NCBI GenBank assembly: GCA_008632985.1
Contig: QPGO01000044.1
Coordinates: forward strand, 1 to 64,000
Length of the DNA stretch: 64,000 nucleotides
Reading direction: 5' to 3'
DNA from: Psammoneis japonica
Taxonomy: Eukaryota
Position 1 is the stretch's first letter. Every line of letters starts with the position of its first letter. The notes under the pieces are model-generated. The model saw only the letters and a program-made list of their open reading frames with translations, was not told where the DNA came from and ran no database searches. Shown piece by piece: positions 34,601 through 51,424 of the stretch. Position numbers and translations under genes: made by a program.

Positions 34601-37470
34601 GACAAGGTGAACATGAAAATTGGGTGCAGTTTCCCAAGCATCATTCGAGCAACTTTGGATTTGGAGCCACTCTCCATCTCTCACATGTCTTGCCATTGAG
34701 CCAACAATTGCCAGTCACCAGGACAATTTGGAAACCAGGTGTGGCCACTGTCAGGGGGGTGTCACAATCTAAATCACTCTCCCCAGGAGGAGGGCACATG
34801 TGGCAACCAAACATCAATTGGATTTACCTGCAACTTTGAAAGATCATGGAAATTAGGCTCTGTGAACAGGTCCTGCAGAGTCTCAATGAAATTACAAACT
34901 GGGAAACTGTTGGTGAATTGGATTGTTGCACTCAAGCATCACAGTCACAGTGTGGGGGAGAGGCACACTGGGGAACAGCTTCAGAAGTTGCTTCATTTCC
35001 ACAGGAGTTGCAGTGGGAGGCTTTGTCAAATCCAGTTGCTTTTTGGTGTGCTCTCTGTGAACCATTCTCATCACTTTGTCAATTGCAACACCAAGTCAAT
35101 GACAAAATGCAGCAGGTGAGCCATGGGTGCAATGCCAGGTGAGTGCACTGGAGGAACGTCAAAGTCCTCATCAGGGACAAGATTGCACGCCAGTCCTGGT
35201 GGATTCTTGGGAACAACAGAGGAATCCGCAGCCAAGTCATCACCAACAGAGTCAAAGGAGGTGATGTGTCCCCCCTGCCAGATGTGACATTAAAGGAGGA
35301 CCCCAAGCACTGTCAAGAGAAGTGGCTGCAACAAACTTGGGAGCATCTCCTGCAGGACTGTTCTCTCCAAGGGCAGATGCACCATCATCAGAAAACAAGA
35401 CAAATTGGCAAATGTTTGCAGCAGCTGCCTTGGCAGCAGCAGATGAGCAACCTGAACATCAAACAGAGGGGTTGCAGACTGTTTTCAATGGTGGGAGAAC
35501 CAACAAGAGAGTCATTGTCAGAGTGTGCAGGAGCAGGTGGGTCTGGATGATTCAAGCGGACTTCAGGAAGGGGTGGGAGGATGGGGTGCATCATTGGCAC
35601 AAAACTGGGCATGGGGGGGTCATTGACAAAATTGCCTGCTGCACCCTTGTCTGGAGGGGAAAATGCATTGACAGCATTGGAAAAAGCAGCAGAGCATCAT
35701 GGGGAAGCATCCTCCTTCTCATGGCAGGGTGCACACTTCTGGAGATGCTGGGCAATGTTGGAAAAGGGAGCTTGGCAATGGGGACATTTTGGTCAATTGG
35801 CAGTGGACCCAACAGAGGCAACAGAGGCGCAACATCCCAAGGAAGCAAAGCAACCCCAAAATCCAACCAGACAGGGAGGATGTTTCAGTTCTTGCATGTG
35901 ACTGCATTCTGGGGGAAGGGAGAACAGCAAAAGCAGTGTGGCAACATGAACACAAAGGTGATGCTGCACCTGGTTTTCCAAGTCAAAACCACATTGTCCA
36001 CACAATGAAGACAACCAAAAGACTTGGTTGGACCAAGTGAAATGGCACAGTTCTTGGTGGCAAGATGACAACAAATGTTGCACTTGGAACTGAACCCAGA
36101 ATGTTTGCAACATGGACACACAAGACCATCTGACTTCATCACCAATGAAATGTGACAGACAAAAATGAAGGCAACAATCGACTGAAAAGAATGTGCACAA
36201 AGCAAACATCAATCCCCAAGTGCAGCAAGCAATTGGCAAAAAGCAAGACCACAAGCTGACAGCAAATGAAGAAGAACAACACGGGGGTCATTGCTGCAAC
36301 AAAACAAAGGATGGCCAACTTGACATGTGACTGCAGAGTTTTGGATCCGCAGGTGTTGGGTGCACTTTGTTCAGGACATGAACACAAACAACATTGCACT
36401 CTCACCCATGCAGCAGAAAAATTGTTGACCGCATGAAGGGAGACATTTGTTGTCAAATGTTTCACAAATGCAGATTTGTCAAAGTGGCATCATCTCATTG
36501 GATCAAACGGAAAAATCACCTGATTGCAAATCAAACATTGTTGATGGCGGGGACAAGACCCAGATTGTTGGTGGCCCAGATGACTCGTGTGCCAGCTGAC
36601 ACAGTGGTTGACTCAGCTGGTCATTTCCCAGCACTCCTGCTTTGCTTTCCCACAGCTGCACAACAAAATTCAAGCCCAAGGCTGTCAAGCAGACCACTCT
36701 GGCTCTTGTTGCCTTGGGCACTCTTGTGTGTGAGACAGCAAAGGGCAACTCTGACAACCCCACAAGCCCATGGTGTCCCTTGGTTTTGAGATGATGCCTG
36801 GCTTTTTTGTGGTGACATTGCTCCCAACACCTGTCAAATGTTTCAGCCAGCATTTTGTCATTGTCTTCGCCTTTCTCAGCACATCACCATGGCGCTTTTG
36901 GGGTTTGGGAGCTCACCATGCTGCCATTTCTTTTCCCAGCAGCTTCGGAGATGACACAGCAAGTCTTGCACTGACCATGCATTCAGCCATGATTGACACA
37001 AGCAAGTCAAGTTGTGTCTCTCTCCCTCTGTGACTCTCCTTCTCAACTCAGAAGAGAGTGCTTTTGCAGCAGCAGCCCACAAAAAAGAGCAGAGAGAGAG
37101 AGAGCCTTTTCTCCAAGCAGCCATTCGTGTGAGCACCCCCCCCCCCCAAGAGAGAGCCAGCAGTGTTGATGGGTTGGACATCTAAACCCAGATTCTCCAT
37201 TTTGGTGCAAACCAGTGGCACAGAGCGCTGGTGTGCTTGGCCAGTGGAGATGACTTCGGCTCGGGTGGGTGTTTGTGTGAGGAGGCAGGCTGGGCCGTCT
37301 TGGCGTGCAGTTGTGCTGGTGCTGCTTCTGCCTGGGCTGAAGCTTGCACCTCTGTTCCAGTCAATGACAGAAGTCTGAAAATTATGGTCATTGTTGAGAT
37401 TGCGATTGCCATTCTTCGATCGGAAAAGTGAGGTTCAAACAGAGTTCGGAGATGGCGCAATGAGTCTTGC
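28661..37470. repeat. Heavily decayed, unclassified repeat/TE-derived block
   Basis: TA and CG almost absent, TG/CA saturated, no intact gene. Only scattered protein-like remnants. Confidence 0.6.
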
Positions 37471-37656
37471 GTTGATGACGCACTCAGTCGTAATCCATGA
37501 TCAAGTTGAATCGTGACTCACATTTTCCTTCCAACGCCAACCAACGGTCGAGAATTTGAAAATTTCGGGAGCCTCAATGCCTGGAATGCGTTGAGCGATT
37601 CGACCCCCACCTCACGACCCTCACAAGAAAGGAGAGCACAATAAGTGCAACAATTG

Positions 37657-40600
37657 ATGATGAAGAGCTATGATGCTGAAGCAAGCCCCATCATCGAACG
37701 TGGCAAGAGTCATGAACGATTTGTGTCATCGACAGCAACAGCCAATGAAGAGCTTCGTAGCAAGTGCAACGATGCCTTTCGACTACTTTCTAAGTATGTG
37801 CTGCTTGGTTGTAATGTGGGTGCCTGGTACTACACAAATGGTATGAATGGCATAGCCATGCAGTCCTTTGCGGCGGCTCAAATGGGAGACCATGATTCTA
37901 TAGCCCTAGTGAACTATGTGGCAGTGACATCCATTGTGACCGCCGCACAATTGGGGCTGGGTGCGATTCTTGGATTGATAATCATTTGGCTTATGCAACG
38001 ACTGCAATGCTGGGAGAGGCCAAAAAGTTCGTATCAACCTGCTGATAACGAATCTGCACTATCCTTGCTCTCTTTACTGCACAGTTGTGGTTCTCTTTTT
38101 ACCAACTTGGGCTTTATGTTTGGTTCGGCGTCACTCGTACAAATCTTGAAGCTTCTGGAGCCTTTTGAAACGCTAGTTTTTAGTCGAATATTGCTGCCGC
38201 AAGAGACATCAATCTCTTTTGGACTTGTTGGTAGCATGGCATTGATTGTTGGTGGAGCTATCTCCCTGATCACTACGAGGCCGAGTTCTCCACAAAGTCT
38301 TTCAATGTTGTTTGCCGTACTTTCCGGTTTGAGTCTCTCCCTACGAAACGTACTGCAAAGAAAAAAGCATGTATCTGAAGCAAAGACCACGGGCTCTTCA
38401 AACACCGGCAAAGTGCAGCGGGCAGTGCACCATTTTTGTCGAATCTCGCGGGAATCATTTGCATTCATGGCGGTCTTTGCCTTTGTGTGGAATGGGTTCT
38501 TGGCCTTTGCGTCCAAGCAATTCAGAACAAGCCTTTATGGCCTTTTGAAAATCTATTGGGGTTTTCTGATGTGGCATCCCACTTACAATGCCTTTTCTAT
38601 GATTGTCTTGGGATACTGTTCGGCTCTCACACATTCCTTATTGAATGTTGGGAAGCGCGTCTCGGCTATAGTTATGGCCATTGTTTGGTTCCATGAAAAT
38701 GTAGGACTTTCCATGGTGTATGGACTTGCTGCGGTTGCCGTTGGTGGCTGCTGGTATGCCATGGAGTCCAAGAAGCCCAAACAGAATTGCAACTTTACAC
38801 CGCAACACCACAATTGGCACAAGATTGTGATTTTATTCACAATTCAAGTTTTGGTCTTGATTCGCGTGTTCATTTCAACCGGAAAAAGCATGGGAGTAGC
38901 TGAAAAACCCCTCCACCTGTTGAGAACAAATGCAAAAACCCGTTGGACGAGAAACAACGTGTCCTTCTTTCACGAGAAGGATGTGTCTTACAATTGCACT
39001 GTGAGATTCAAAGACCCTGAAATGTCCCTCTGCTACTTTGTTCCGTACGGCATGAACTTTGGTGACACGTTGGGACCGGCGGTCATCCAGAAACTGCTGG
39101 AAAACCATTTCGGATGTTCCGCTCAGAATGTTTCCCTTCTCGACTTGGCCCATGGGGGTCAAAAACAGCGAAAGGATCGCACGTGCCTCTTTGCATTGGG
39201 ATCTATTTTTCACTACGTTAAAACAGGTGATCACATTTGGGGAACAGGTATAAATCCAATGTGGCAAAAGCAATATCCAAAATCTGTAACTACTTACTCG
39301 GTTCGTGGTCCAAGAACAGAGGCCTTAGCTCGAGAGCATTTGAACATTTCCGAGAGCACTAGCATTGATAATGGCGATCCTGGTAAGATCTACTGGAATA
39401 CAAAAGTATTGCAATGTATATACCAGTATCTGTGATATCTTCTCTTATAAAAGTTCTTTGTCTGACGCGATTAACAGGATTTCTTATTCCATTCTTGTAC
39501 AAAGAATACAAACGCAAGAATGCAACAGAGTCTTCGGCAAATCACGTGTGCTTCGTTCCTCATTATCAAGACAAAAAAGAAAGAGCGGTTTTGTCTCCTG
39601 GAAACGTTCAAATTATTTCGGTCCAACAAGACTGGCGTTCGGTTTTGTCGCTCATTAGAGAGTGCGATTTTGTGGCTTCGTCGTCTCTTCATGGGATAGT
39701 TATTGCCGACGCTTTAGGAATCCCTACCATGTGGTTCCAATTCTCAGGGTCAAAAACCGCAACCACAGAAGGTTATTTCAAGTATCGCGATTACTTCGAG
39801 AGTGTCAATAGATCCGTGTCAAAACCTGAGAGCTATTTTTCGCACATTTTAAAGGCTGATCGCTATCAACCTGTTATTCCACTTCCGAAACGAAAGTTGA
39901 TTGCAAAGCGGACTGCAGAGTCCTTTCCAATGCATTTGTTTGAATCGATTCCTTGGCATTCTCATGAATCTGTTTCAGTGCACTTGCCTGGGTCGATGTC
40001 AGCGGATTCTACTCCATCAAATATTGATGCCAATCGGACGCTGGTTGTGATTTTAGGTAATTTGCGAGGAGGAGAATTGGCATGGCAAACCTTATACAAG
40101 CACGTGCTGGACAAAAACAGTGCCGATTTGGCGCTGTCGATCGGTGAAGTGCCGCCCGAGCAACGAAACTCTTCATTGTACGCAAGAGCCAAGTATCTCT
40201 GGGAATTTCCGGAATATGATGATTGGGCTGATGCCATTGATTTGATCAATGGAACAAAATGGCGCGATGAGCTACTCCCGCACATCAACCCAAGATCGTA
40301 AGTGTGTGAAATATTTGTTTTTCTAGCGAATGAAATGACTTGCCATTAAAAGTTCTTGGATCAAGATATTCTTACAAGACCTTGCTTCTCTTGTTCTGGT
40401 ATTTTGCCCAGGGGTCTCTTTGGAGGAGCCAATGGTCTCCGTGGCAGCGGTGCGGTAATTTTTATGGCACGCTGGTTCCTCTCAGAGCAGATTAAAAAGC
40501 TTGGTCTCCTTGAGAAGTATGATCGATTTGTTGTGACCCGGTCAGATCACTACTACGAGTGTGCACATGACCTAGGCACACTAGATCCAACCTTTATGTG

Positions 40601-40994
40601 GACCCCGACGTTGAGTGATTTTGGAGGAGTGACTGACCGACATTTGGTCTGCAACAATCGTCAGATTCTTAGGGCTTTGGATATTTTTCCACACATGATA
40701 GAGCACCCAGAGCTTTATATTGCGGACTTGGAAACTAGAAAGACTAATCCCGAGAGGCTAATTTTGAAACGTTGGGAGATGGAGAATCTTGCACCCGAGT
40801 TGAAAAGGTTTGGTCGCACGTTTTTTACGTGCGCAGGTGAAGGTGATCAGACACGATGGCAAAAACCGTCAAATTACACGGTCGAGGAAGGCGTTCATCT
40901 CAAGTATGTGATTGAATATGAAGCAGCAAAATGTACCTGCAAAGGGGGTGTCGCCAAAAAAGTTGCTCATGAAACCGTGTCATGCACAAAATAA
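37657..40994 (+). CDS. Fusion protein: TPT/SLC35E-like transporter + polysaccharide pyruvyltransferase + unknown GT-like domain; introns 39383-39477 and 40298-40411
   Basis: TPT-like: SLVQILKLLEPFETL, SLRNVLQRK, SALTHSLLNVGKR. Pyruvyltransferase: NFGDTLGP, IWGTG, SVRGPRT, GDP|GFL across intron 1, VPHYQD, SSSLHGIVIADALGIP, FKYRDYF. The third domain follows in the same exon without a stop. Confidence 0.88.
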
Positions 40995-41464
40995 TGCCAT
41001 ACTTAGTCGCACCTTTGTCACCAATCCCATGCTCACAGTGTCTACTCATGGCCATTACAGGTGACGCGCTGTAGTCTACGTCATGTTCGATGCAGACTGC
41101 ACCAGTCTTTTTGAGTTAGGCTAGGCCATCTAAGAGAGGGCCCTTGCTTTACGGCACTAGAGTGCTTCTTGCTTGCTCACTTTACTGTAACCTTATTTTC
41201 AATTTTGCTCTTCATTCATTTCTACTCGGAGTAGTCGTATCTTCATTACACCCAAAGCATTCACCCCCAAATCTGATAAAGAGTCAACAAACCGCTTACT
41301 AAAATTGGAAGCAACCTGGGCTGCCGTAGATTTTGTACCGTGAGTTTGCGAGGTTGAGCAGAGGCCGTAAAACAAACAGCTCTTGCTCGACACCGCCTTC
41401 TTCTTGTTGTCGTTGTTGCTGAACAGCGGGTTGATTGTTAAACAGTAAAAACAAAAATCACAAT

Positions 41465-41815
41465 ATGCAAGAGATTGCCGCATTAATGCTGTGTAAATTG
41501 GGAGGCAAGGGTGGATCAGCCGACGAATGCAAGGCTGTTATTGAAGCTGCCGGTTTGGAAGCCAATGAGGAACAATTGACGAAGTTGCTGGGCGATGTGG
41601 AGGGAAAAGATATTAATGAGTTGTTGGCTGCTGGTATGGAGAAGCTCAAGGATGTGCCCATGGGTGGTGGAGGCGGCGGCGGCGGAGGAGGAGGAGGCGG
41701 TGGTGCTGCTGGTGGCGCTGCCGAGGAAGAAGAGGAGAAGGTTGAGGAAGAGGAAGAAGCGGACATTGGAGGGGGGATGGATATGTTTGGCGGAGATGAT
41801 GGCGGAGACTACTAG
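41465..41815 (+). CDS. RPLP2: 60S acidic ribosomal protein P2
   Basis: AALMLCKLGG...VEGKDINELLAAGMEKL, Gly/Ala hinge, acidic tail ending GGGMDMFGGDDGGDY. Confidence 0.93.
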   Translation: MQEIAALMLCKLGGKGGSADECKAVIEAAGLEANEEQLTKLLGDVEGKDINELLAAGMEKLKDVPMGGGGGGGGGGGGGGAAGGAAEEEEEKVEEEEEADIGGGMDMFGGDDGGDY

Positions 41816-42049
41816 AAAACAAATCGAACGGCATTGTTTACATGATATCCACTAATTCTGCATAGTTGTGCCGAGCGTCACCCACATGAGGGGCGCTCGA
41901 ACTACTGCGTTCTGAGGGTCTTGTAGTCTTTGTACTTTCTTTTCATAGCTTGTTGTGATCGTTTCTTTTGAGATGGTTGATTTGCTTTGTAGAGCTTTAG
42001 GTTTGAGATATTATGATGCAACAGAGGAGAAGATTTCAAATGCAAATAA

Positions 42050-45000
42050 TGGTTACAGTGCTCACCTGTGGTCCTTTCGCGCGCCGCCTGTGCAGCGCTG
42101 AGCACGCAGGCAGTAAGCAAGGCAAGCAAGTGAGAGACCGAGAAGCGTCTGTCGTTGCTCACACTCCAATTGCTGCACGAAGGTGCAGCATTTTTCAAAA
42201 CGCGCTTTGTTCTGGTTTAAAGGATGGATCTCCGTGCTGCGGTCTGTTTTTTTTTTCAATCGTCCAGCTACGTAGGCAGCTCTTTATAAACTGTGTAGAA
42301 AATGCACCAGGGTTTGTGTAGAATTTGATGATGACACAATTCCATTTTGATGGCGACAAGTGGAAACACACATGGTTTTCCTGCACAAATTTGACAGTGA
42401 CGCCACAGACGGAATCATTGTCAACGTGCCAATCACTGCATCATTTCAGGTGTTTTGATCACAGGAAATTCCTTGTTTGTTGCTGAATTTCCCTGGACAA
42501 GGAAAGACAAGGAAACAAGAAAAGGAAAAATTGAGCAGTGGTTCAATGCGCAGTTGCAACCGTCATGATCCTTTCATCAAGTTGCCCGCAGACTTGGGTG
42601 GCCATGGGTGTGGGAGGAGGAAAATTGGTGTTTGGGAGTTGGGCGGTTGTGTTGCAGGGGGCAAGATGGGGTGAGCGGGTGGGTGGGTGGGTGGGTGCAT
42701 GGTCGGTGAGAAGGAATGCCCAGAAACATGGGTGACGATTGTTGATCAGTGGTGTCACAGGAGACGGTTGCAGGGCAATGGCAATGTGTCAGTTAAAGCA
42801 ATGAAAGGGGGGAGAAAAAAGAAAATGTGTGCTGCACGTTAAAGTGACAGTGCAGTTGGCAAACAAAAGAAACAAAGGGGGGGGGGAACATTGGGAAAGG
42901 GGATGTTCAAACAGGAACCGTGCAGAAAAGACATTGGGAATGTCGCAGACATGTTCATTTTCACAGTGGAAGAGCACTGTTGCAAAAGTGCTTGAGGGTG
43001 GAGGTGTCACAATGAACAATGTGCCCATGCAAGCAATCGTGACAATGATGGAGGGAAGTTTGGAGTGTTTCAAAAGCAAAGCACTGGAGTGTTTCTAAAA
43101 CAAAGTGGCGGCAGTGTTTCTGATGACGATGTGATGGAAAACAACAGGAATGGATGAAACAAGGGAGAGAAGGACAAGAAGAGAGGAAGGGAGGAAAGAA
43201 AGAATGATGAAAAAATTGGGAGATTGAAAAAGGGGCAAAAGAGAGAGAGAGAGCAGGAAGAAAGGAAGGCAGTCCGATCAGCTCCGATTCCGGTGGTGCC
43301 CATTTTGCCATGTCCTGTTCAGAATGATGCGGCATCATTGCATGATGCATGGAGTTCAAACATTTGCAGAAGGATGGAACAAGCCTGTTGTGTTTGGAGT
43401 GCAGTCAGTTTTGCTTGTGTTTGATTCAAAGCAAATGTCAAAACATGCCAGAGCAAAATTCAAGATGCGTCAACATTGGCAAGAGGTGGCTTCAAAGAGG
43501 AAGAAGTTGAGAACTGAAGTGCAAATAAAGAGAATGGAAAGTGCGTTCAAGAAAGGAATTGATGTGAAGAATGTGACAGTGGACAGTGCTGAAAAAGGCA
43601 AAGGAAAAACTTGGAAATGCAGGAAGTGTTTTGCAAAGCAGCCGCATGGTGTGACGGACTGAAGTTGTGTTGGATGTGTGTGATGGTGCAAAGGTGGAAT
43701 GCAAGGCAGAAGCAAGGAGGAAAGTGGACACATTTGATTTTGTTGATGACAATGAAGGAGAAGACAATGACACGTGGCTGCCAGAGGATGATGCAAAGGA
43801 AATTGAAAGGAAGAAGATTGTTGAACAAAAAAGGATCGAAAAAGAAAGCCGTGGAAAAGGGAAAGGAAAGAAAAAGAAATGGGTTGATGCAGAGGTTGCC
43901 AATGAGATTTGGTGGGAAAGCACAGCAAATGTAGAAGAGACACTTGCCAAGGAAAGAATTGGTGGCTCAGAAGAAGCACACAAATGGGGATTGGCAGTCT
44001 TTGTCCCCAAGATTCTTGTTTTAAGGATGGATCCACATGCTGCGGTCTGTTTTTTGGGAGCTCATGATTTTTATAAAAATGACCCTGGTTCATCACACCA
44101 AACATGTGCATTTGCCATTGGCAAAGTTTGTCCACTTCAAAGCATCATGGATTGCACAGACAATGGTCATGACTGTGCACAACTTTTACATTGTCAACTG
44201 CAGACATGTCCATGGCCAGTCAAATGCTGCCCATCGGATGTTCCCAGAAAGCTGCAGCCTGTCTCCCACAAGAAGCCCGATTTTGGCAATGACTGGCTTC
44301 TCTTTCAACCTGACAACAGGGCACAGGTCAACAAGTGGCACCTGAATCTTTGAATGTGCAGCTCTCATGCAGGTGTGACAGCCCTGAGAAGGGCTTGACA
44401 AACACACAAGTGCTTGGGGGTTCTCCAAAGCAGGTCAAAACAACATGACAAAGTGCAGAAATGCAAGCCATTTTAAATTAGACCGCAGCATGTAAATCCA
44501 TCCTCAACGCTGGATTGGCAAGCTTGCAATTTTTTGGAAAAAAAAAAACAGGATGGATCTGCGAGCTTGCAATTTTTTGAAAAAAGTCAGACACTCTGAA
44601 TGCACACACGTTTGCGAAAAAAAAATTCAGCAACAGGTCCAACTTTGTCCTTTTGTCAGACATCACAGAGTGCACAAGCAACAGTTGTGACCATGCATGA
44701 TCTTTGTCTTTAGCATGACTGCTGCAGACATGTCTGCAGCCAGCCACACGCCAATTGTTGGCATTTTCTGGAAAGTTCTTGTGGCTCATCTCCCCCAAGC
44801 AGTGCTTTTTGGCAAAAAATGGTGGTTTGTCAACAACTGCACCAAAACTGACAATTGGTGTTTGAAAGTTGAAATGTGTGGTTCACACACAGGTCTAGCA
44901 ATGGCCCTGATGGAGGCTGGATGCACTCACAAGTGTTTGCAAAACAACATGGGCAAAGTGCAGGAAAACAGGAAGAAATGTGAGCCAATTGAAAAATGCC

Positions 45001-48913: not shown

Positions 48914-49150
48914 AGTCAAGATGCAGTCCTGCAGCTGGGTGGGATGGATGAGACCTCGGAGGTTGGCAGCAATGTGAGCAGCAACAGAGCAAACAGACGC
49001 TTGATTCAAAGTCGTTGTCTAAAAATTATGATGAAAGTCGTTGATTCTGTTTTGAATCGGATTGTTGTGATGAGCCAAATGTTTCAAAGAAAAGAGCTGA
49101 GTCTTGGTTGCAGTCGTGAAATGCGACCAGGATGACGTTGAGTTGTGACT
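48914..49150 (-). repeat. 3' LTR of the nested Copia (237 bp)
   Basis: Direct repeat of 56576-56811; termini AGTCA...TGACT. Confidence 0.95.
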
Positions 49151-51424
49151 CTCCCTCTCAACCGAGAGAGCTTGCCAGCCCACAAGAGCCTTTCTAGCTG
49201 CGCAGAACGCATCGGTCCGCAGTCCCTTCATGAACTGATTGGCCAGTTGCTCCAGAGTGCTGACAGGTTGGATGTTGATCTCCAATTGTTCGACTTTAGT
49301 CCTAAACCAGTGGTGTGGGATGCCGATGTGTTTGGTTCGCGGAGACAACTTGGGCATGCATGCGAACTTGAGGCACGCGGAGTTGTCTTCACACACAACG
49401 GACACAGGTGGGACATTCTGCTCAACAGGCGAGTCATTGGTGCCTTGGTTTGCGAGCTCAAAAGCCTTGGAGTGAGTCGTGATGGGGTTTTTGTGGTCAG
49501 ACTTTCCGAACACGTGGTGGTTGAGCTCCTTGAGAACTTCACGAATGGGGATGAGATCGTGCATGGCTTGAGAAAGTGTGGCACATTCCACTTCCACAGT
49601 GGACAATGCTGCAAGAGTCTGTGGCTTGAACACCCAGATGAGTGGGCAGCCAGCACAGTGGACAAGGTGTCCAGTCCTGGACTTGACAGAAACTGGGTCT
49701 TGACCATCTTCTACACCAAACAACCCCGTGAAGTCAGAATCAACGCAACAATCAACTCGATGATCTTGCGCAGGCTTGAGAATGAGACCTTCAGCAGCAG
49801 TGGCTTTGAGGTGTCGGAGCATCCGCTTTGCTGCAGCAGGGTGGGACACTCGGGGTGCAAATGAAAATCGAGCTGCTTGATGTGCAGCATGCGCAATGTC
49901 TGGCCGGCTGTTTGCTGCCAAGTGCATCAACATTCCAACAACTGAGCGATGATCGCAGGGTTCATCAAAAGGCAGGCCATCCATGTTGGCACCAACAGGC
50001 ACAGGCAGAGCTGGAGTGGATGCTCCATTGCAATCCTGCATCTGTGTGGCACGCAGGACCTTGTCAATTAGACCGGGTTGAGTGAGCAGAAATCGACCCT
50101 CAGAGAGCTTTTCGATCTTGATGCCGAGAAAGTTGCCGACTTCTCCTTCGTCTCTGAGTTCAAATGCATGTCGATGCTCGTCATTGGAGACTCCCAACTT
50201 GCAAATTTCTTCTTCTAAAGCTTCAGCTGAAGCTCCAGCAAATGCTGTGTCGTCAACGTGCACCACACACATCACACCCTCTTTGAAATACGAACAGGGG
50301 TCTGTGGCTGAAGGCACCCATCCGCACTTGATCAAACCAGCTTGTAACTTCTCGCAGAAGCCCTTGGGAGACTGTTTTAGGCCATGCAGTCCTTTCAAAA
50401 GTTTGAGGACCACATTGAGTCCTGACCTTGGCACAAAACCCTTCGACGGTGTTGCACAAACTTCCTCGGCGATGTCAGCTTGGCAGAAGGCTGTGGTGCA
50501 GTCCACCTGACGTGCAGTCCATCCTTCCTTCAATGCCGCAGCAAGCATGAGTCGGATGCTTGACCATTGCACGACCGGCGCACAGGTTTCAAAGTGATCC
50601 ACTCCTTCTTTCTGCAAATCACTGCGGACGCAGCATCAGGCCTTACACTTCAGAGGGGTTCCATCTGGGAGTCTCTTGAGCTCAAGTGCCCATGCACCTG
50701 GAAGCACATTCACACGCAGCTGACACTCGACTGCTTTCCAGGCTTGACGATGTGTGAGTGTGTTGACCTCAATTTTCATTGCCTCAATCCATTCATCAGT
50801 GTCCGGACCTTTCAGAGCATTGTGCAACGAGGGCACATCAGGGTCCTTGGTCTTCTTGCTGGGCTGCGCAGGCTCGTGGATCATCGATGTTGATGGCGCC
50901 ACTGTCCAAATCCGTCTCAAGAGTCTCCAGGTGCACCAGCTGAGCCTCGTGTCCAATCGGCATTGGCATTTCCTTGACGGAACTGAAGCAGACTTCGTCT
51001 GTGAACTTGGCAGAGTTGAGCTGTCCTTTGGTCGACCTTGAAGACCGTTGCAGCCCTGACACTCCCTCTGGATTCGTCACAGGAGGTGTCTTGACTGGGG
51101 GAGGAGCTGTTGGTTCCGTCGGCGCTTTGGGTGGCGGAAGTTCGTTGCTGTCTTGAGGTTCAGGTGGCTGAATTGGCACAGATTCCACAGAGTCTGCAGG
51201 AGTTTGAGTTGCAGGTGGGACTGGTGACGTTGGCTGTTGAGTGGCAGGCATGACTCGATTGGAAATGTTGTCACAAGCCTCTTTGCGTTGACGCTCTGGA
51301 GGGGTGAGCCACTCATTGTGCAGGTGGACCGTCTGATCCTTCTCCAGAGGGATGCATGTCAATTGGTTGAGACACAAGTGCTCCCAGTGATCAGGTGGAT
51401 CCGTCTCCCTCTTGATTGATGGTG

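What the first reader, a model, noticed from the sequence alone, without database searches (positions are those of the whole stretch)
37657..40994. Tri-domain fusion: TPT-family (putative PEP) transporter + pyruvyltransferase + unknown GT-like domain
Seen: a single stop-free ORF joins a multi-TM TPT-like domain to a pyruvyltransferase whose GDPG motif is completed by a GT-AG intron, and the third domain follows in frame. Established: polysaccharide pyruvyltransferases use PEP. In fission yeast, Golgi pyruvylation needs Pvg1 plus separate TPT-family PEP transporters (Pet proteins), and bacterial ExoV-type enzymes pyruvylate exopolysaccharide. Inference: a self-supplying Golgi module that imports PEP and pyruvylates a glycan, with the third domain possibly making or modifying the acceptor. 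This implies pyruvylated EPS or glycoproteins in this alga.
Basis: partly seen in the sequence, partly recalled or inferred. Interest (0 to 1): 0.8.

Follow-up and report, generated by a model that had tools for sequence, protein, structure and literature searches.

The report
Transporter–pyruvyltransferase–glycosyltransferase-like fusion gene in a diatom
One diatom-type gene joins a phosphate-exchanging membrane transporter to two sugar-modifying enzyme domains, probably importing phosphoenolpyruvate into the Golgi and using it there to add pyruvate to glycans, a process known so far only from separate proteins in fission yeast.

Summary
A three-exon gene at 37657-40994 (+) encodes 1042 aa.

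- **Exon 1** is one stop-free ORF. It runs from a TPT-family transporter through an extra, 11th membrane helix into the N-half of a PS_pyruv_trans domain.
- **Exon 2** finishes that domain and starts a third domain. **Exon 3** completes it.

The transporter profile matches only the plastid-type phosphate translocator among solved structures. It keeps all four phosphate-binding residues. The 11th helix should place both enzyme domains in the lumen. The third domain is a distant DUF7796 relative. A homologue's model has a GT-A glycosyltransferase fold (GT6/GT8-like) without the DxD motif.

The architecture is not unique:
- Three-domain relatives form four other protein clusters, one with a transcriptome ORF spanning all three domains.
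- TPT+pyruvyltransferase fusions form four more clusters, including a gregarine transcriptome.
- Six of 52 metagenome loci show the same junction.

All are unannotated, and my paper searches found no description.

Best reading (about 0.6): a PEP/phosphate antiporter fused to a luminal pyruvyltransferase and a glycosyltransferase-like module. PEP transport, Golgi location and pyruvylated diatom glycans remain untested. I rate it a new variant of a known kind.

The parts
37657..39382 (+). Exon 1 (aa 1-575 plus the first base of Gly576): transporter, 11th helix and N-half of the pyruvyltransferase in one ORF
   Evidence: ORF 37645-39435 is stop-free. The donor G|GTAAGA is at 39382/39383.
37792..38772 (+). 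TPT/DMT transporter core, about aa 46-372, ten helices by alignment to GsTPT2. Phosphate tetrad: K165, Y310, K333, R334.
   Evidence: PF03151 E 6.4e-22. The profile hits only 5y78/5y79, E 1.1e-10, chain 38-319. Residue roles come from 10.1101/169169.
38818..38880 (+). 11th hydrophobic helix (aa 388-408, WHKIVILFTIQVLVLIRVFIS), the predicted link that carries the chain into the lumen
   Evidence: Highest Kyte-Doolittle peak of the protein, 2.43. A similar C-terminal helix is present in 88 of 101 stand-alone relatives with a tail of 25 aa or more (sequences).
38974..39382 (+). Pyruvyltransferase domain, N-half (NFGD, GSIFH, GDH, VRGP, GDP motifs)
   Evidence: No Pfam hit alone. Aligned with full-length PS_pyruv_trans relatives.
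39383..39477 (+). Intron 1, 95 nt, GT...AG, phase 1, splits the last Gly codon of GDPG
   Evidence: The junction is confirmed by intron-free relatives.
39478..40297 (+). Exon 2: pyruvyltransferase C-half (to about 39960) and the first ~90 aa of the third domain (from about 40032)
   Evidence: PF04230 E 8.7e-9, profile positions 227-276 of 280. Translation.
40298..40411 (+). Intron 2, 114 nt, GTAAGT...CCCAG, with an in-frame TAA.
   Evidence: The junction RS/GLFGG matches relatives.
40412..40994 (+). Exon 3: rest of the third domain (GT-A-like, distant DUF7796 relative) and the stop codon
   Evidence: DUF7796 scores only 12.5-12.8 bits, below the cut-off of 27. 49 relatives found. Fold of relative P0123.

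Best explanation
The gene encodes one polypeptide with three working parts. I propose it acts in the Golgi or a related endomembrane compartment.

1. **Transporter.** An 11-helix member of the TPT/DMT family has the phosphate-binding site of plastid-type phosphate translocators. It would exchange cytosolic phosphoenolpyruvate (PEP) for luminal inorganic phosphate.
2. **Link.** The 11th helix brings the chain into the lumen.
3. **Pyruvyltransferase.** A PS_pyruv_trans (GT-B-like) domain would transfer the pyruvyl group of PEP onto a glycan as a ketal. This releases one phosphate per PEP, which is exactly the counter-substrate a strict 1:1 antiporter needs.
4. **Third domain.** A GT-A-fold, glycosyltransferase-like domain would build or modify the acceptor sugar.

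Shown here: the gene model, the domain identities and folds, the conserved phosphate tetrad, the extra helix, and the recurrence of the fusion.

Inferred: PEP as substrate, the direction of transport, the compartment, the acceptor, and any catalytic activity of the third domain.
For: **Gene model.**

**Transporter.**
- PF03151 E 6.4e-22.
- A 29-sequence profile hits a single distinct PDB sequence at E <= 1: the Galdieria phosphate translocator 5y78/5y79, E 1.1e-10.
- In that alignment the window's K165, Y310, K333 and R334 fall on Lys204, Tyr339, Lys362 and Arg363. These bind phosphate and are needed for exchange (10.1101/169169, passages read).
- The tetrad K-Y-K-R is kept in 113 of 115 stand-alone relatives (the other two lack residues at the last positions), in 5 of 6 three-domain rows and in 7 of 9 two-domain rows.
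- The first 45 residues hold no hydrophobic signal peptide, and the first strong hydrophobic segment starts at aa 81.

**Topology.** The extra helix at aa 388-408 has KD 2.43. There are 10 N-x-S/T sequons after aa 400 against 2 before.

**Pyruvyltransferase.**
- PF04230 scores above its cut-off.
- Motifs NFGD, VRGP, SLH and FKY are conserved.

**Functional link (Rosetta-stone argument).**
- TPT+pyruvyltransferase is fused in the Selenidium transcriptome proteins P0108 and P0280, and in P0235, P0262 and P0271.
- 6 of 52 metagenome loci have both parts in one ORF.
- These two-domain forms lack the third domain. So the transporter's recurring partner is the pyruvyltransferase.

**Known precedent.** Pvg1p in the fission-yeast Golgi depends on the PEP transporters Pet1p and Pet2p (PMC4872226, passages; PMC6801904 section 5.1.3). 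Phosphate is released from PEP on pyruvyl transfer (PMC10435577).

**Third domain.**
- The model of P0123 has pLDDT above 90 over the domain.
- Foldseek's top matches are GT-A retaining glycosyltransferases (XXYLT1 E 1.7e-6, glycogenin, GTA/GTB, LARGE1).
- Pyruvyltransferase+D3 is the commonest multi-domain form among the collected relatives (27 + 11 proteins, the 27 counting the window's own exon-2 piece).
Against: - No transcript evidence exists for this gene (no RNA run listed). An internal start at Met371 could in principle give an enzyme-only isoform.
- PEP specificity is not readable from the sequence. The residue equivalent to His185 (the carboxylate contact in GsTPT2) is Ser. The Phe263 equivalent is Leu, neither the Phe of TPT nor the Asn of AtPPT1.
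- TPT-family proteins also include nucleotide-sugar transporters, and a GT-A-like domain is present. A sugar-nucleotide importer is therefore not excluded.
- The residue at the position of Pvg1p Arg337 / CsaB Arg306 (the R of R-L-H) is Ser in the window and in 48 of 52 relatives. This assignment rests on motif position, not on a structural superposition.
- The pyruvyltransferase profile finds no solved structure by sequence. The fold match to Pvg1p is tied with UDP-sugar epimerases and other GT-B enzymes.
- The third domain lacks DxD; T-R-S-D sits after the central strand. It has no assayed relative.
- One three-domain relative, P0155, has lost the Lys-Arg pair (K-Y-E-Q). In some lineages the transporter part may therefore be only an anchor.
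Confidence: 0.6

Rival explanations
1. The transporter domain imports a nucleotide sugar, or another phosphorylated donor, for the GT-A-like third domain rather than PEP for the pyruvyltransferase.
For: PF03151 also covers nucleotide-sugar transporters (recalled, not from a call). The language-model look-alikes after the diatom TPT cluster are nucleotide-sugar, PAPS and SLC35 clusters. The third domain has a glycosyltransferase fold. The pocket residues away from the phosphate site differ from both TPT and PPT.
Against: No solved nucleotide-sugar transporter matches the profile at E <= 1, while the phosphate translocator matches at 1.1e-10. All four phosphate-site residues of the translocator are kept. 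Fusions without the third domain exist in four protein clusters and in metagenome loci, so the recurrent partner is the pyruvyltransferase.
Confidence: 0.15
2. The transporter part is mainly a polytopic membrane anchor with reduced or lost transport. The protein is in effect a Golgi-anchored two-enzyme glycan modifier supplied by separate transporters.
For: The three-domain relative P0155 has K-Y-E-Q instead of K-Y-K-R. The transporter parts of the other three-domain proteins are only 25-28% identical to the window's and sit on a long branch. Stand-alone transporters of the same clade are abundant (112 TPT-only proteins).
Against: In the window itself the tetrad and 45 invariant columns of the family alignment are intact. 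Its transporter part is 42-50% identical to stand-alone relatives over about 370 residues, so it does not look relaxed.
Confidence: 0.12
3. The PS_pyruv_trans-like domain is not a PEP-dependent ketal-pyruvyltransferase. It would be a GT-B-type enzyme with another donor, and the transporter's cargo would differ accordingly.
For: The Arg337 equivalent is Ser in this whole clade. The Pfam match in the window covers only profile positions 227-276. The fold match is no better to Pvg1p than to epimerases or SenB. There is no sequence match to any solved pyruvyltransferase.
Against: PF04230 is above its cut-off in the window and covers positions 98-276 in relatives. The equivalents of Asp106, Arg217 and His339 are conserved in 43, 50 and 43 of 52 relatives. 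CsaB tolerates some changes at PEP-binding positions (H308K and H308S stay active; PMC10435577).
Confidence: 0.08
4. Gene-model artefact: two or three neighbouring genes that only look joined.
For: No RNA data for this locus. Met371 followed by a basic stretch and a helix could serve as a type II start.
Against: A 596-codon ORF crosses the junction without a stop. Both splice junctions reproduce conserved motifs. The same order is seen in proteins of 1025-1034 aa (P0155, P0174, P0308/P0312) and in a transcriptome ORF, P0146. Six metagenome loci have the junction in one ORF.
Confidence: 0.05

Closest known systems
Fission-yeast PvGal pathway: Golgi pyruvyltransferase Pvg1p plus PEP transporters Pet1p/Pet2p
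   Different: In yeast these are separate proteins; here they form one chain with a third domain. No sequence-level match to Pvg1p was found. The Arg337 equivalent is Ser. Kinship of the transporter part to Pet1p/Pet2p could not be tested because no Pet sequence was available to the tools.
Plastidic phosphate translocators (GsTPT2, PDB 5y78/5y79; plant TPT and PPT)
   Same: This is the only solved structure matched by the transporter profile. The phosphate-binding Lys/Tyr/Lys/Arg are conserved, so strict phosphate-linked exchange is expected.
   Different: Identity to GsTPT2 is low (a profile was needed; the single sequence found no solved structure). There is no plastid-type presequence. An added 11th helix is present. 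The pocket residues His185 and Phe263 are Ser and Leu. It is fused to enzymes.
Bacterial ketal-pyruvyltransferases (CsaB, WcfO, ExoV/WcaK type; Pfam PF04230)
   Same: Same Pfam family. The conserved Asp, Arg and His positions are implicated in acceptor and PEP binding.
   Different: The bacterial enzymes are cytoplasmic and act on lipid-linked intermediates (PMC6801904). This one is predicted luminal, eukaryotic and fused.
Retaining GT-A glycosyltransferases of families GT6 and GT8 (GTA/GTB, alpha-3GalT, BoGT6a, XXYLT1, glycogenin)
   Different: Identity is 5-13% across the two searches. There is no Pfam match to GT6 or GT8, and no DxD motif (T-R-S-D instead). The nearest sequence family is the uncharacterised DUF7796, whose look-alike clusters are mostly from giant viruses and haptophytes.

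Membership tests
TPT family (Pfam PF03151, DMT superfamily) | Profile match above the curated cut-off | tested here: met
   78.7 bits against a cut-off of 30, E 6.4e-22, profile positions 25-290 of 291.
Plastid-type phosphate translocators (pPT) | Phosphate-binding residues Lys204, Tyr339, Lys362, Arg363 (GsTPT2 numbering) | tested here: met
   The alignment to 5y78, with an offset of 89 worked out by hand, puts K165, Y310, K333 and R334 on them. Their roles come from 10.1101/169169.
Plastid-type phosphate translocators (pPT) | Plastid targeting presequence; in diatoms, a signal peptide first (recalled) | tested here: not met
   There is no hydrophobic segment in the first 45 residues by hydropathy. 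No dedicated targeting predictor was available.
Plastid-type phosphate translocators (pPT) | PEP-preferring pocket (Asn at the Phe263 position, as modelled for AtPPT1) | tested here: not met
   Leu occupies this position in the window and in 101 of 115 stand-alone relatives. This says nothing firm about PEP use.
Golgi PEP transporters Pet1p/Pet2p of S. pombe | Sequence kinship and PEP transport | not testable with these tools
   No Pet sequence could be obtained. Transport needs a bench assay.
PS_pyruv_trans (Pfam PF04230) | Profile match above the curated cut-off | tested here: met
   36.1 bits against 25.3 on exon 2, profile positions 227-276 only. Relatives P0155 (48.4 bits, positions 98-276) and P0174 (44.0 bits, positions 98-276) are covered further.
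PS_pyruv_trans (Pfam PF04230) | Two-lobed GT-B-like fold as in Pvg1p (5ax7) | tested here: met
PS_pyruv_trans (Pfam PF04230) | Equivalents of Pvg1p Asp106, Arg217, His339 | tested here: met
   D470 (NFGD), R550 (VRGP) and H647 (SLH) are present. They are conserved in 43, 50 and 43 of 52 relatives. Equivalence is by motif position and the roles come; no structural superposition was done.
PS_pyruv_trans (Pfam PF04230) | Equivalent of Pvg1p Arg337 / CsaB Arg306 (R of R-L-H) | tested here: not met
   Ser645 in the window, and Ser in 48 of 52 relatives.
GT-A fold glycosyltransferases (GT6/GT8-like) | GT-A fold | tested here: met
GT-A fold glycosyltransferases (GT6/GT8-like) | DxD metal/nucleotide motif after the central strand | tested here: not met
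   A nearly invariant T-R-x-D (T222, R223, D225 of P0123) follows strand 218-222. The position is judged from secondary structure, not from a superposition.
DUF7796 (Pfam PF25072) | Profile match above the curated cut-off | tested here: not met
   12.5-12.8 bits against 27 for the window's exon 3. The distant relative P0167 reaches 32.1. So this is a remote relative, not a called member.

The most novel reading that the evidence does not exclude
This would be a self-balancing 'import-and-cap' machine. The phosphate released by the luminal pyruvyltransferase would be the obligatory counter-substrate of the fused antiporter, so each pyruvyl transfer pays for the next PEP import.

On this reading the abundant stand-alone diatom transporters of the same clade are the so far unidentified Golgi PEP transporters of diatoms and other SAR protists. 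They share the Ser/Leu pocket and a C-terminal 11th helix.

The fusion to pyruvyltransferases would have been gained or lost several times. Diatoms would then make pyruvate-ketal glycans, which the review I read (PMC6801904) does not list for them.
Probability: 0.35. Interest if true: 0.75.

Novelty: new variant of a known kind. Interest (0 to 1): 0.62.

Why it matters
Fission yeast is the only eukaryote for which the papers I read name an enzyme and transporter system for glycan pyruvylation, and there the parts are separate proteins.

A natural fusion of a phosphate-translocator-type transporter with a pyruvyltransferase is genetic evidence that the two work together. It points to a whole clade of diatom transporters as candidate Golgi PEP carriers. 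It also predicts pyruvate ketals, an anionic and acid-labile cap, on diatom glycoproteins or extracellular polymers. These materials matter for adhesion, aggregation and carbon export.

The fusion also offers a compact, testable system for substrate channelling between a transporter and a luminal transferase, and it gives a first functional context for the DUF7796-like GT-A domain.

Tried and rejected
- **RNA runs:** none was listed for 37400-41200.
- **Own genome:** none is held for this window.
- **'Longer' protein search with exon 1:** no hit. This blank was a false negative, because proteins of 1025-1034 aa with the same order were later found from exons 2 and 3.
- **Single-sequence search of the transporter against solved structures:** no hit at E <= 0.01. 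The profile was needed.
- **Pyruvyltransferase profile against solved structures:** only a chance-level row (miniGq, E 0.048).
- **Pfam on the pyruvyltransferase N-half and on the first part of the third domain:** nothing.
- **Independent origin of the window's fusion:**
  - The free tree nests the window's transporter inside the stand-alone clade (SH-aLRT 91 and 94). That is apart from the other three-domain proteins, which form their own clade (100).
  - The AU test does not reject one clade for all four (delta lnL 18.7, p 0.148). I therefore make no claim of a separate fusion.
  - On the pyruvyltransferase tree, starred branches force at least 5 changes of the 'fused to TPT' label among 9 rows. 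Short 'solo' rows may be fragments, so this is only a hint of repeated gain or loss.
  - Rows left out of the trees: near-identical isoforms or fragments (9 in each tree) and every second stand-alone transporter.
- **P0254 (668 aa):** I suspected a hidden transporter, but it has one N-terminal helix and no TPT match.
- **Language-model look-alikes of the transporter:** only the general DMT superfamily.
- **Paper searches:**
  - Searches returned no listed paper on a transporter-pyruvyltransferase fusion.
  - 61 papers hold the Pfam names, and the 40 listed deal with bacteria or phages or are general.
  - 2 general reviews hold pyruvyl*, diatom and Golgi together.
  - 0 papers mention DUF7796 or PF25072.
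  - Searches were poorly posed and uninformative. One search was a format error.
- **Earlier findings of this scan:** nothing by place, words or sequence.
Full report
**Observation**

The region 37657-40994 (+) is a real, intact gene. A stop-to-stop ORF of 596 codons (37645-39435) starts with ATG at 37657. Two further ORFs in one frame follow (39387-40301 and 40350-40994).

Reading the DNA gives two short GT-AG introns.
- **Intron 1** is 39383-39477 (95 nt, GTAAGA...ACAG) and splits the last Gly codon of G-D-P-G.
- **Intron 2** is 40298-40411 (114 nt, GTAAGT...CCCAG) and contains an in-frame TAA.

Other acceptor choices for intron 2 run into stops (my reading). The spliced CDS is 3129 nt and encodes 1042 aa with no internal stop.

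Both junctions recreate motifs that relatives carry uninterrupted. These are GDPGFLIPFLY (P0155; P0185 and P0172) and GLFGG...GSGA (P0155, P0146 and P0123). The second intron was missed, so 'single stop-free ORF' holds only for the transporter-to-pyruvyltransferase junction, which is the junction that matters.

**Domains**

Pfam gives three results.
- TPT (PF03151): E 6.4e-22 on exon 1.
- PS_pyruv_trans (PF04230): E 8.7e-9 on exon 2, above its cut-off but covering only the last 50 profile positions.
- DUF7796: a sub-threshold hit on exon 3.

The N-half of the pyruvyltransferase has no Pfam hit alone. It aligns throughout with full-length relatives whose Pfam match covers profile positions from about 88-99 up to 276.

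Hydropathy shows the strongest hydrophobic segment of the protein at aa 388-408, directly after the transporter core. There are 10 N-x-S/T sequons after residue 400 against 2 before.

**The transporter part**

- A single-sequence search of solved structures found nothing.
- A 29-sequence family profile hit exactly one distinct sequence at E <= 1. It is the Galdieria phosphate translocator 5y78/5y79 (E 1.1e-10, chain 38-319 of 329).
- No solved nucleotide-sugar transporter appeared.

I used the preprint on that structure (10.1101/169169; passages read). It names Lys204, Tyr339, Lys362 and Arg363 as the phosphate site and His185, Thr188, Phe192 and Phe263 as the sugar side. I mapped these residues through the printed alignment by hand, with an offset of 89.

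The window has K165, Y310, K333 and R334 at the four phosphate positions. It has Ser at the His185 position and Leu at the Phe263 position.

| Group | Rows with K-Y-K-R | Exceptions |
|---|---|---|
| Stand-alone relatives | 113 of 115 | two lack residues at the last positions |
| Three-domain rows | 5 of 6 | P0155 has K-Y-E-Q |
| Two-domain rows | 7 of 9 | the Selenidium pair has K-F-K-R |

The Ser/Leu pair is shared by most stand-alone and most fused forms.

The preprint also states that these translocators are strict 1:1 exchangers. The first 45 residues are not hydrophobic. I therefore see no signal peptide of the kind that, from recall, diatom plastid proteins need.

**Relatives and architectures**

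*Exon 1 as query.* It returned 117 hits, nearly all stand-alone diatom transporters of 320-600 aa that cover only the transporter part. Their named sources are Nitzschia, Fistulifera, Mayamaea and Bacillariaceae. One of the 117 (P0108, a Selenidium serpulae transcriptome ORF of 741 aa) also carries the pyruvyltransferase and ends there.

*Exon 3 as query.* It returned 49 relatives at about 30-59% identity, of which 6 had PF04230 on record.

*Exon 2 against 1.84 billion representatives.* It gave 4221 hits at E <= 0.001.

Pfam scans of 12 and 31 of the long ones, sequences and cluster members give three groups.
- **Three-domain proteins.** P0155 (1025 aa), P0174 (1034 aa), the P0146 cluster and the fragment P0173. 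The P0146 cluster holds a transcriptome ORF of 881 aa spanning all three domains, plus 1031-aa members on contigs of about 3.3 kb.
- **Two-domain transporter+pyruvyltransferase proteins.** P0108/P0280, P0235, P0262 and P0271.
- **Pyruvyltransferase+third-domain proteins without a transporter.** These are numerous.

With my own HMMs over the 321 collected proteins and pieces plus the spliced window protein, the counts were as follows.

| Architecture | Count | Note |
|---|---|---|
| Three-domain | 8 | includes the window |
| TPT+PvT | 12 | includes the window's exon 1 |
| PvT+D3 | 27 | includes the window's exon 2 |
| PvT+PvT+D3 | 11 | |
| TPT only | 112 | |

By my reading, eight of the 150 listed representatives are transporter fusions.

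A scan of JGI metagenome contigs found 52 loci with a transporter relative. In six of them (L031, L033, L034, L036, L041, L042) the end of the transporter and the pyruvyltransferase lie in one stop-free ORF. For L041 and L042 I judged this from the frame of the second transporter segment. The closest stand-alone loci with 1.7-4.6 kb of downstream DNA (L003, L005, L006, L010) have no pyruvyltransferase there.

So the architecture is recurrent but nowhere annotated. Source names are 'hypothetical protein' or 'DMT-like permease'.

**The 11th helix**

Stand-alone relatives also end in a hydrophobic helix. Of 101 with a tail of at least 25 aa, 88 have one. Its pattern is W-[FH]-K-[LI]...Q..LL, which resembles the window's WHKIVILFTIQVLVL.

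I infer that this transporter clade already ends on the luminal side. In the window the enzymes are simply appended to that helix, replacing the N-terminal anchor that stand-alone pyruvyltransferases and third-domain proteins carry (N-terminal helices in P0123, P0185 and others).

**Evolution**

- The window's transporter part is 42-50% identical to stand-alone relatives. It is only 25-28% identical to the transporter parts of the other three-domain proteins.
- Its pyruvyltransferase is closest to those proteins (45-51%).
- Its third domain is closest to transporter-less proteins (about 61%).

A quick maximum-likelihood tree nests the window inside the stand-alone clade (SH-aLRT 91 and 94). 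The other three-domain proteins form a separate long-branched clade (100). The AU test does not reject a single clade (p 0.148).

On the pyruvyltransferase tree the fused forms are scattered, and starred branches force at least 5 label changes. Fragmentary rows weaken this. I therefore report repeated gain or loss as a possibility, not a result.

**The pyruvyltransferase part**

Passages in PMC4872226 and PMC10435577 name the key residues.
- Pvg1p: Asp106, Arg217, Arg337, His339, Lys361.
- CsaB: Arg148, Arg306, His308, Lys328.

By motif position the window keeps the Asp (NFGD), the first Arg (VRGP), the His (SLH) and a nearby Lys (FKY). It has Ser where R-L-H has Arg, as do 48 of 52 relatives. 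The same CsaB paper measures phosphate released from PEP on transfer.

**The third domain**

A model of P0123 has pLDDT above 90 across the domain. P0123 is a type II helix plus this domain alone, and is 61% identical to the window's third domain.
- Foldseek's best matches are retaining GT-A glycosyltransferases.
- The family has many near-invariant charged residues. T-R-S-D sits where DxD is expected.

Relatives are fused to other glycan enzymes: Fringe plus Nucleotid_trans, STELLO, and Methyltransf_22. Language-model look-alikes are DUF7796-bearing clusters, mostly from giant viruses and haptophytes. No paper mentions DUF7796.

**Mechanism proposed**

I propose three coupled steps.
1. PEP enters in exchange for luminal phosphate.
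2. The tethered pyruvyltransferase uses PEP on a glycan and regenerates the phosphate.
3. The GT-A-like domain prepares or extends the acceptor.

The yeast precedent is Pvg1p with Pet1p/Pet2p, read as passages only. The original Pet paper was seen only as a reference.

The steps that remain inference are PEP as cargo, the compartment, the acceptor, and activity of the third domain.

**Surroundings**

Nothing glycan-related lies nearby.
- A 60S acidic ribosomal protein ORF follows at 41435-41815 (+).
- A copia-type reverse transcriptase lies at 49019-50635 (-).
- The other 13 of the 15 ORFs I picked from 28-50 kb and scanned have no Pfam match.

**Verdict**

I rate it a new variant of a known kind. 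It is of real interest to glycobiology and diatom cell-surface biology, and it is directly testable.

Noticed in passing
window 41435-41815 (+): ORF with a 60S acidic ribosomal protein domain (PF00428, E 1.9e-12) and a long Gly run, just downstream of the gene.
   Followed up: partly
window 49019-50635 (-): A 538-codon ORF with a copia-type reverse transcriptase (RVT_2, E 1.3e-26), so a retrotransposon copy lies about 8 kb downstream.
   Followed up: partly
window 42001-44000: Strong positive GC skew (0.355) and AT skew (0.189) in one 2-kb bin, unlike the neighbouring bins.
   Followed up: no
protein P0155 (three-domain relative, 1025 aa): Its transporter part has Glu-Gln where the family has the phosphate-binding Lys-Arg, and it gets no PF03151 match at E <= 0.01. 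It may be a degenerate transporter kept as an anchor.
   Followed up: partly
proteins P0294, P0301, P0178, P0209, P0302: The third-domain family and the pyruvyltransferase are each fused to other glycan enzymes: Fringe+Nucleotid_trans, STELLO, Methyltransf_22, Gly_transf_sug and GT8. These protists seem to build many multi-enzyme Golgi proteins.
   Followed up: no
locus L042, 5413-6423: A third-domain-like coding stretch lies about 2.8 kb downstream of a transporter-pyruvyltransferase ORF on the same strand. It could be a separate gene or one joined through something unrecognised.
   Followed up: no
protein P0123 and look-alikes: The nearest ESM-Atlas clusters of the third domain are mostly from Nucleocytoviricota (79% and 84% viral members), which hints that giant viruses carry this GT-A-like family.
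   Followed up: no
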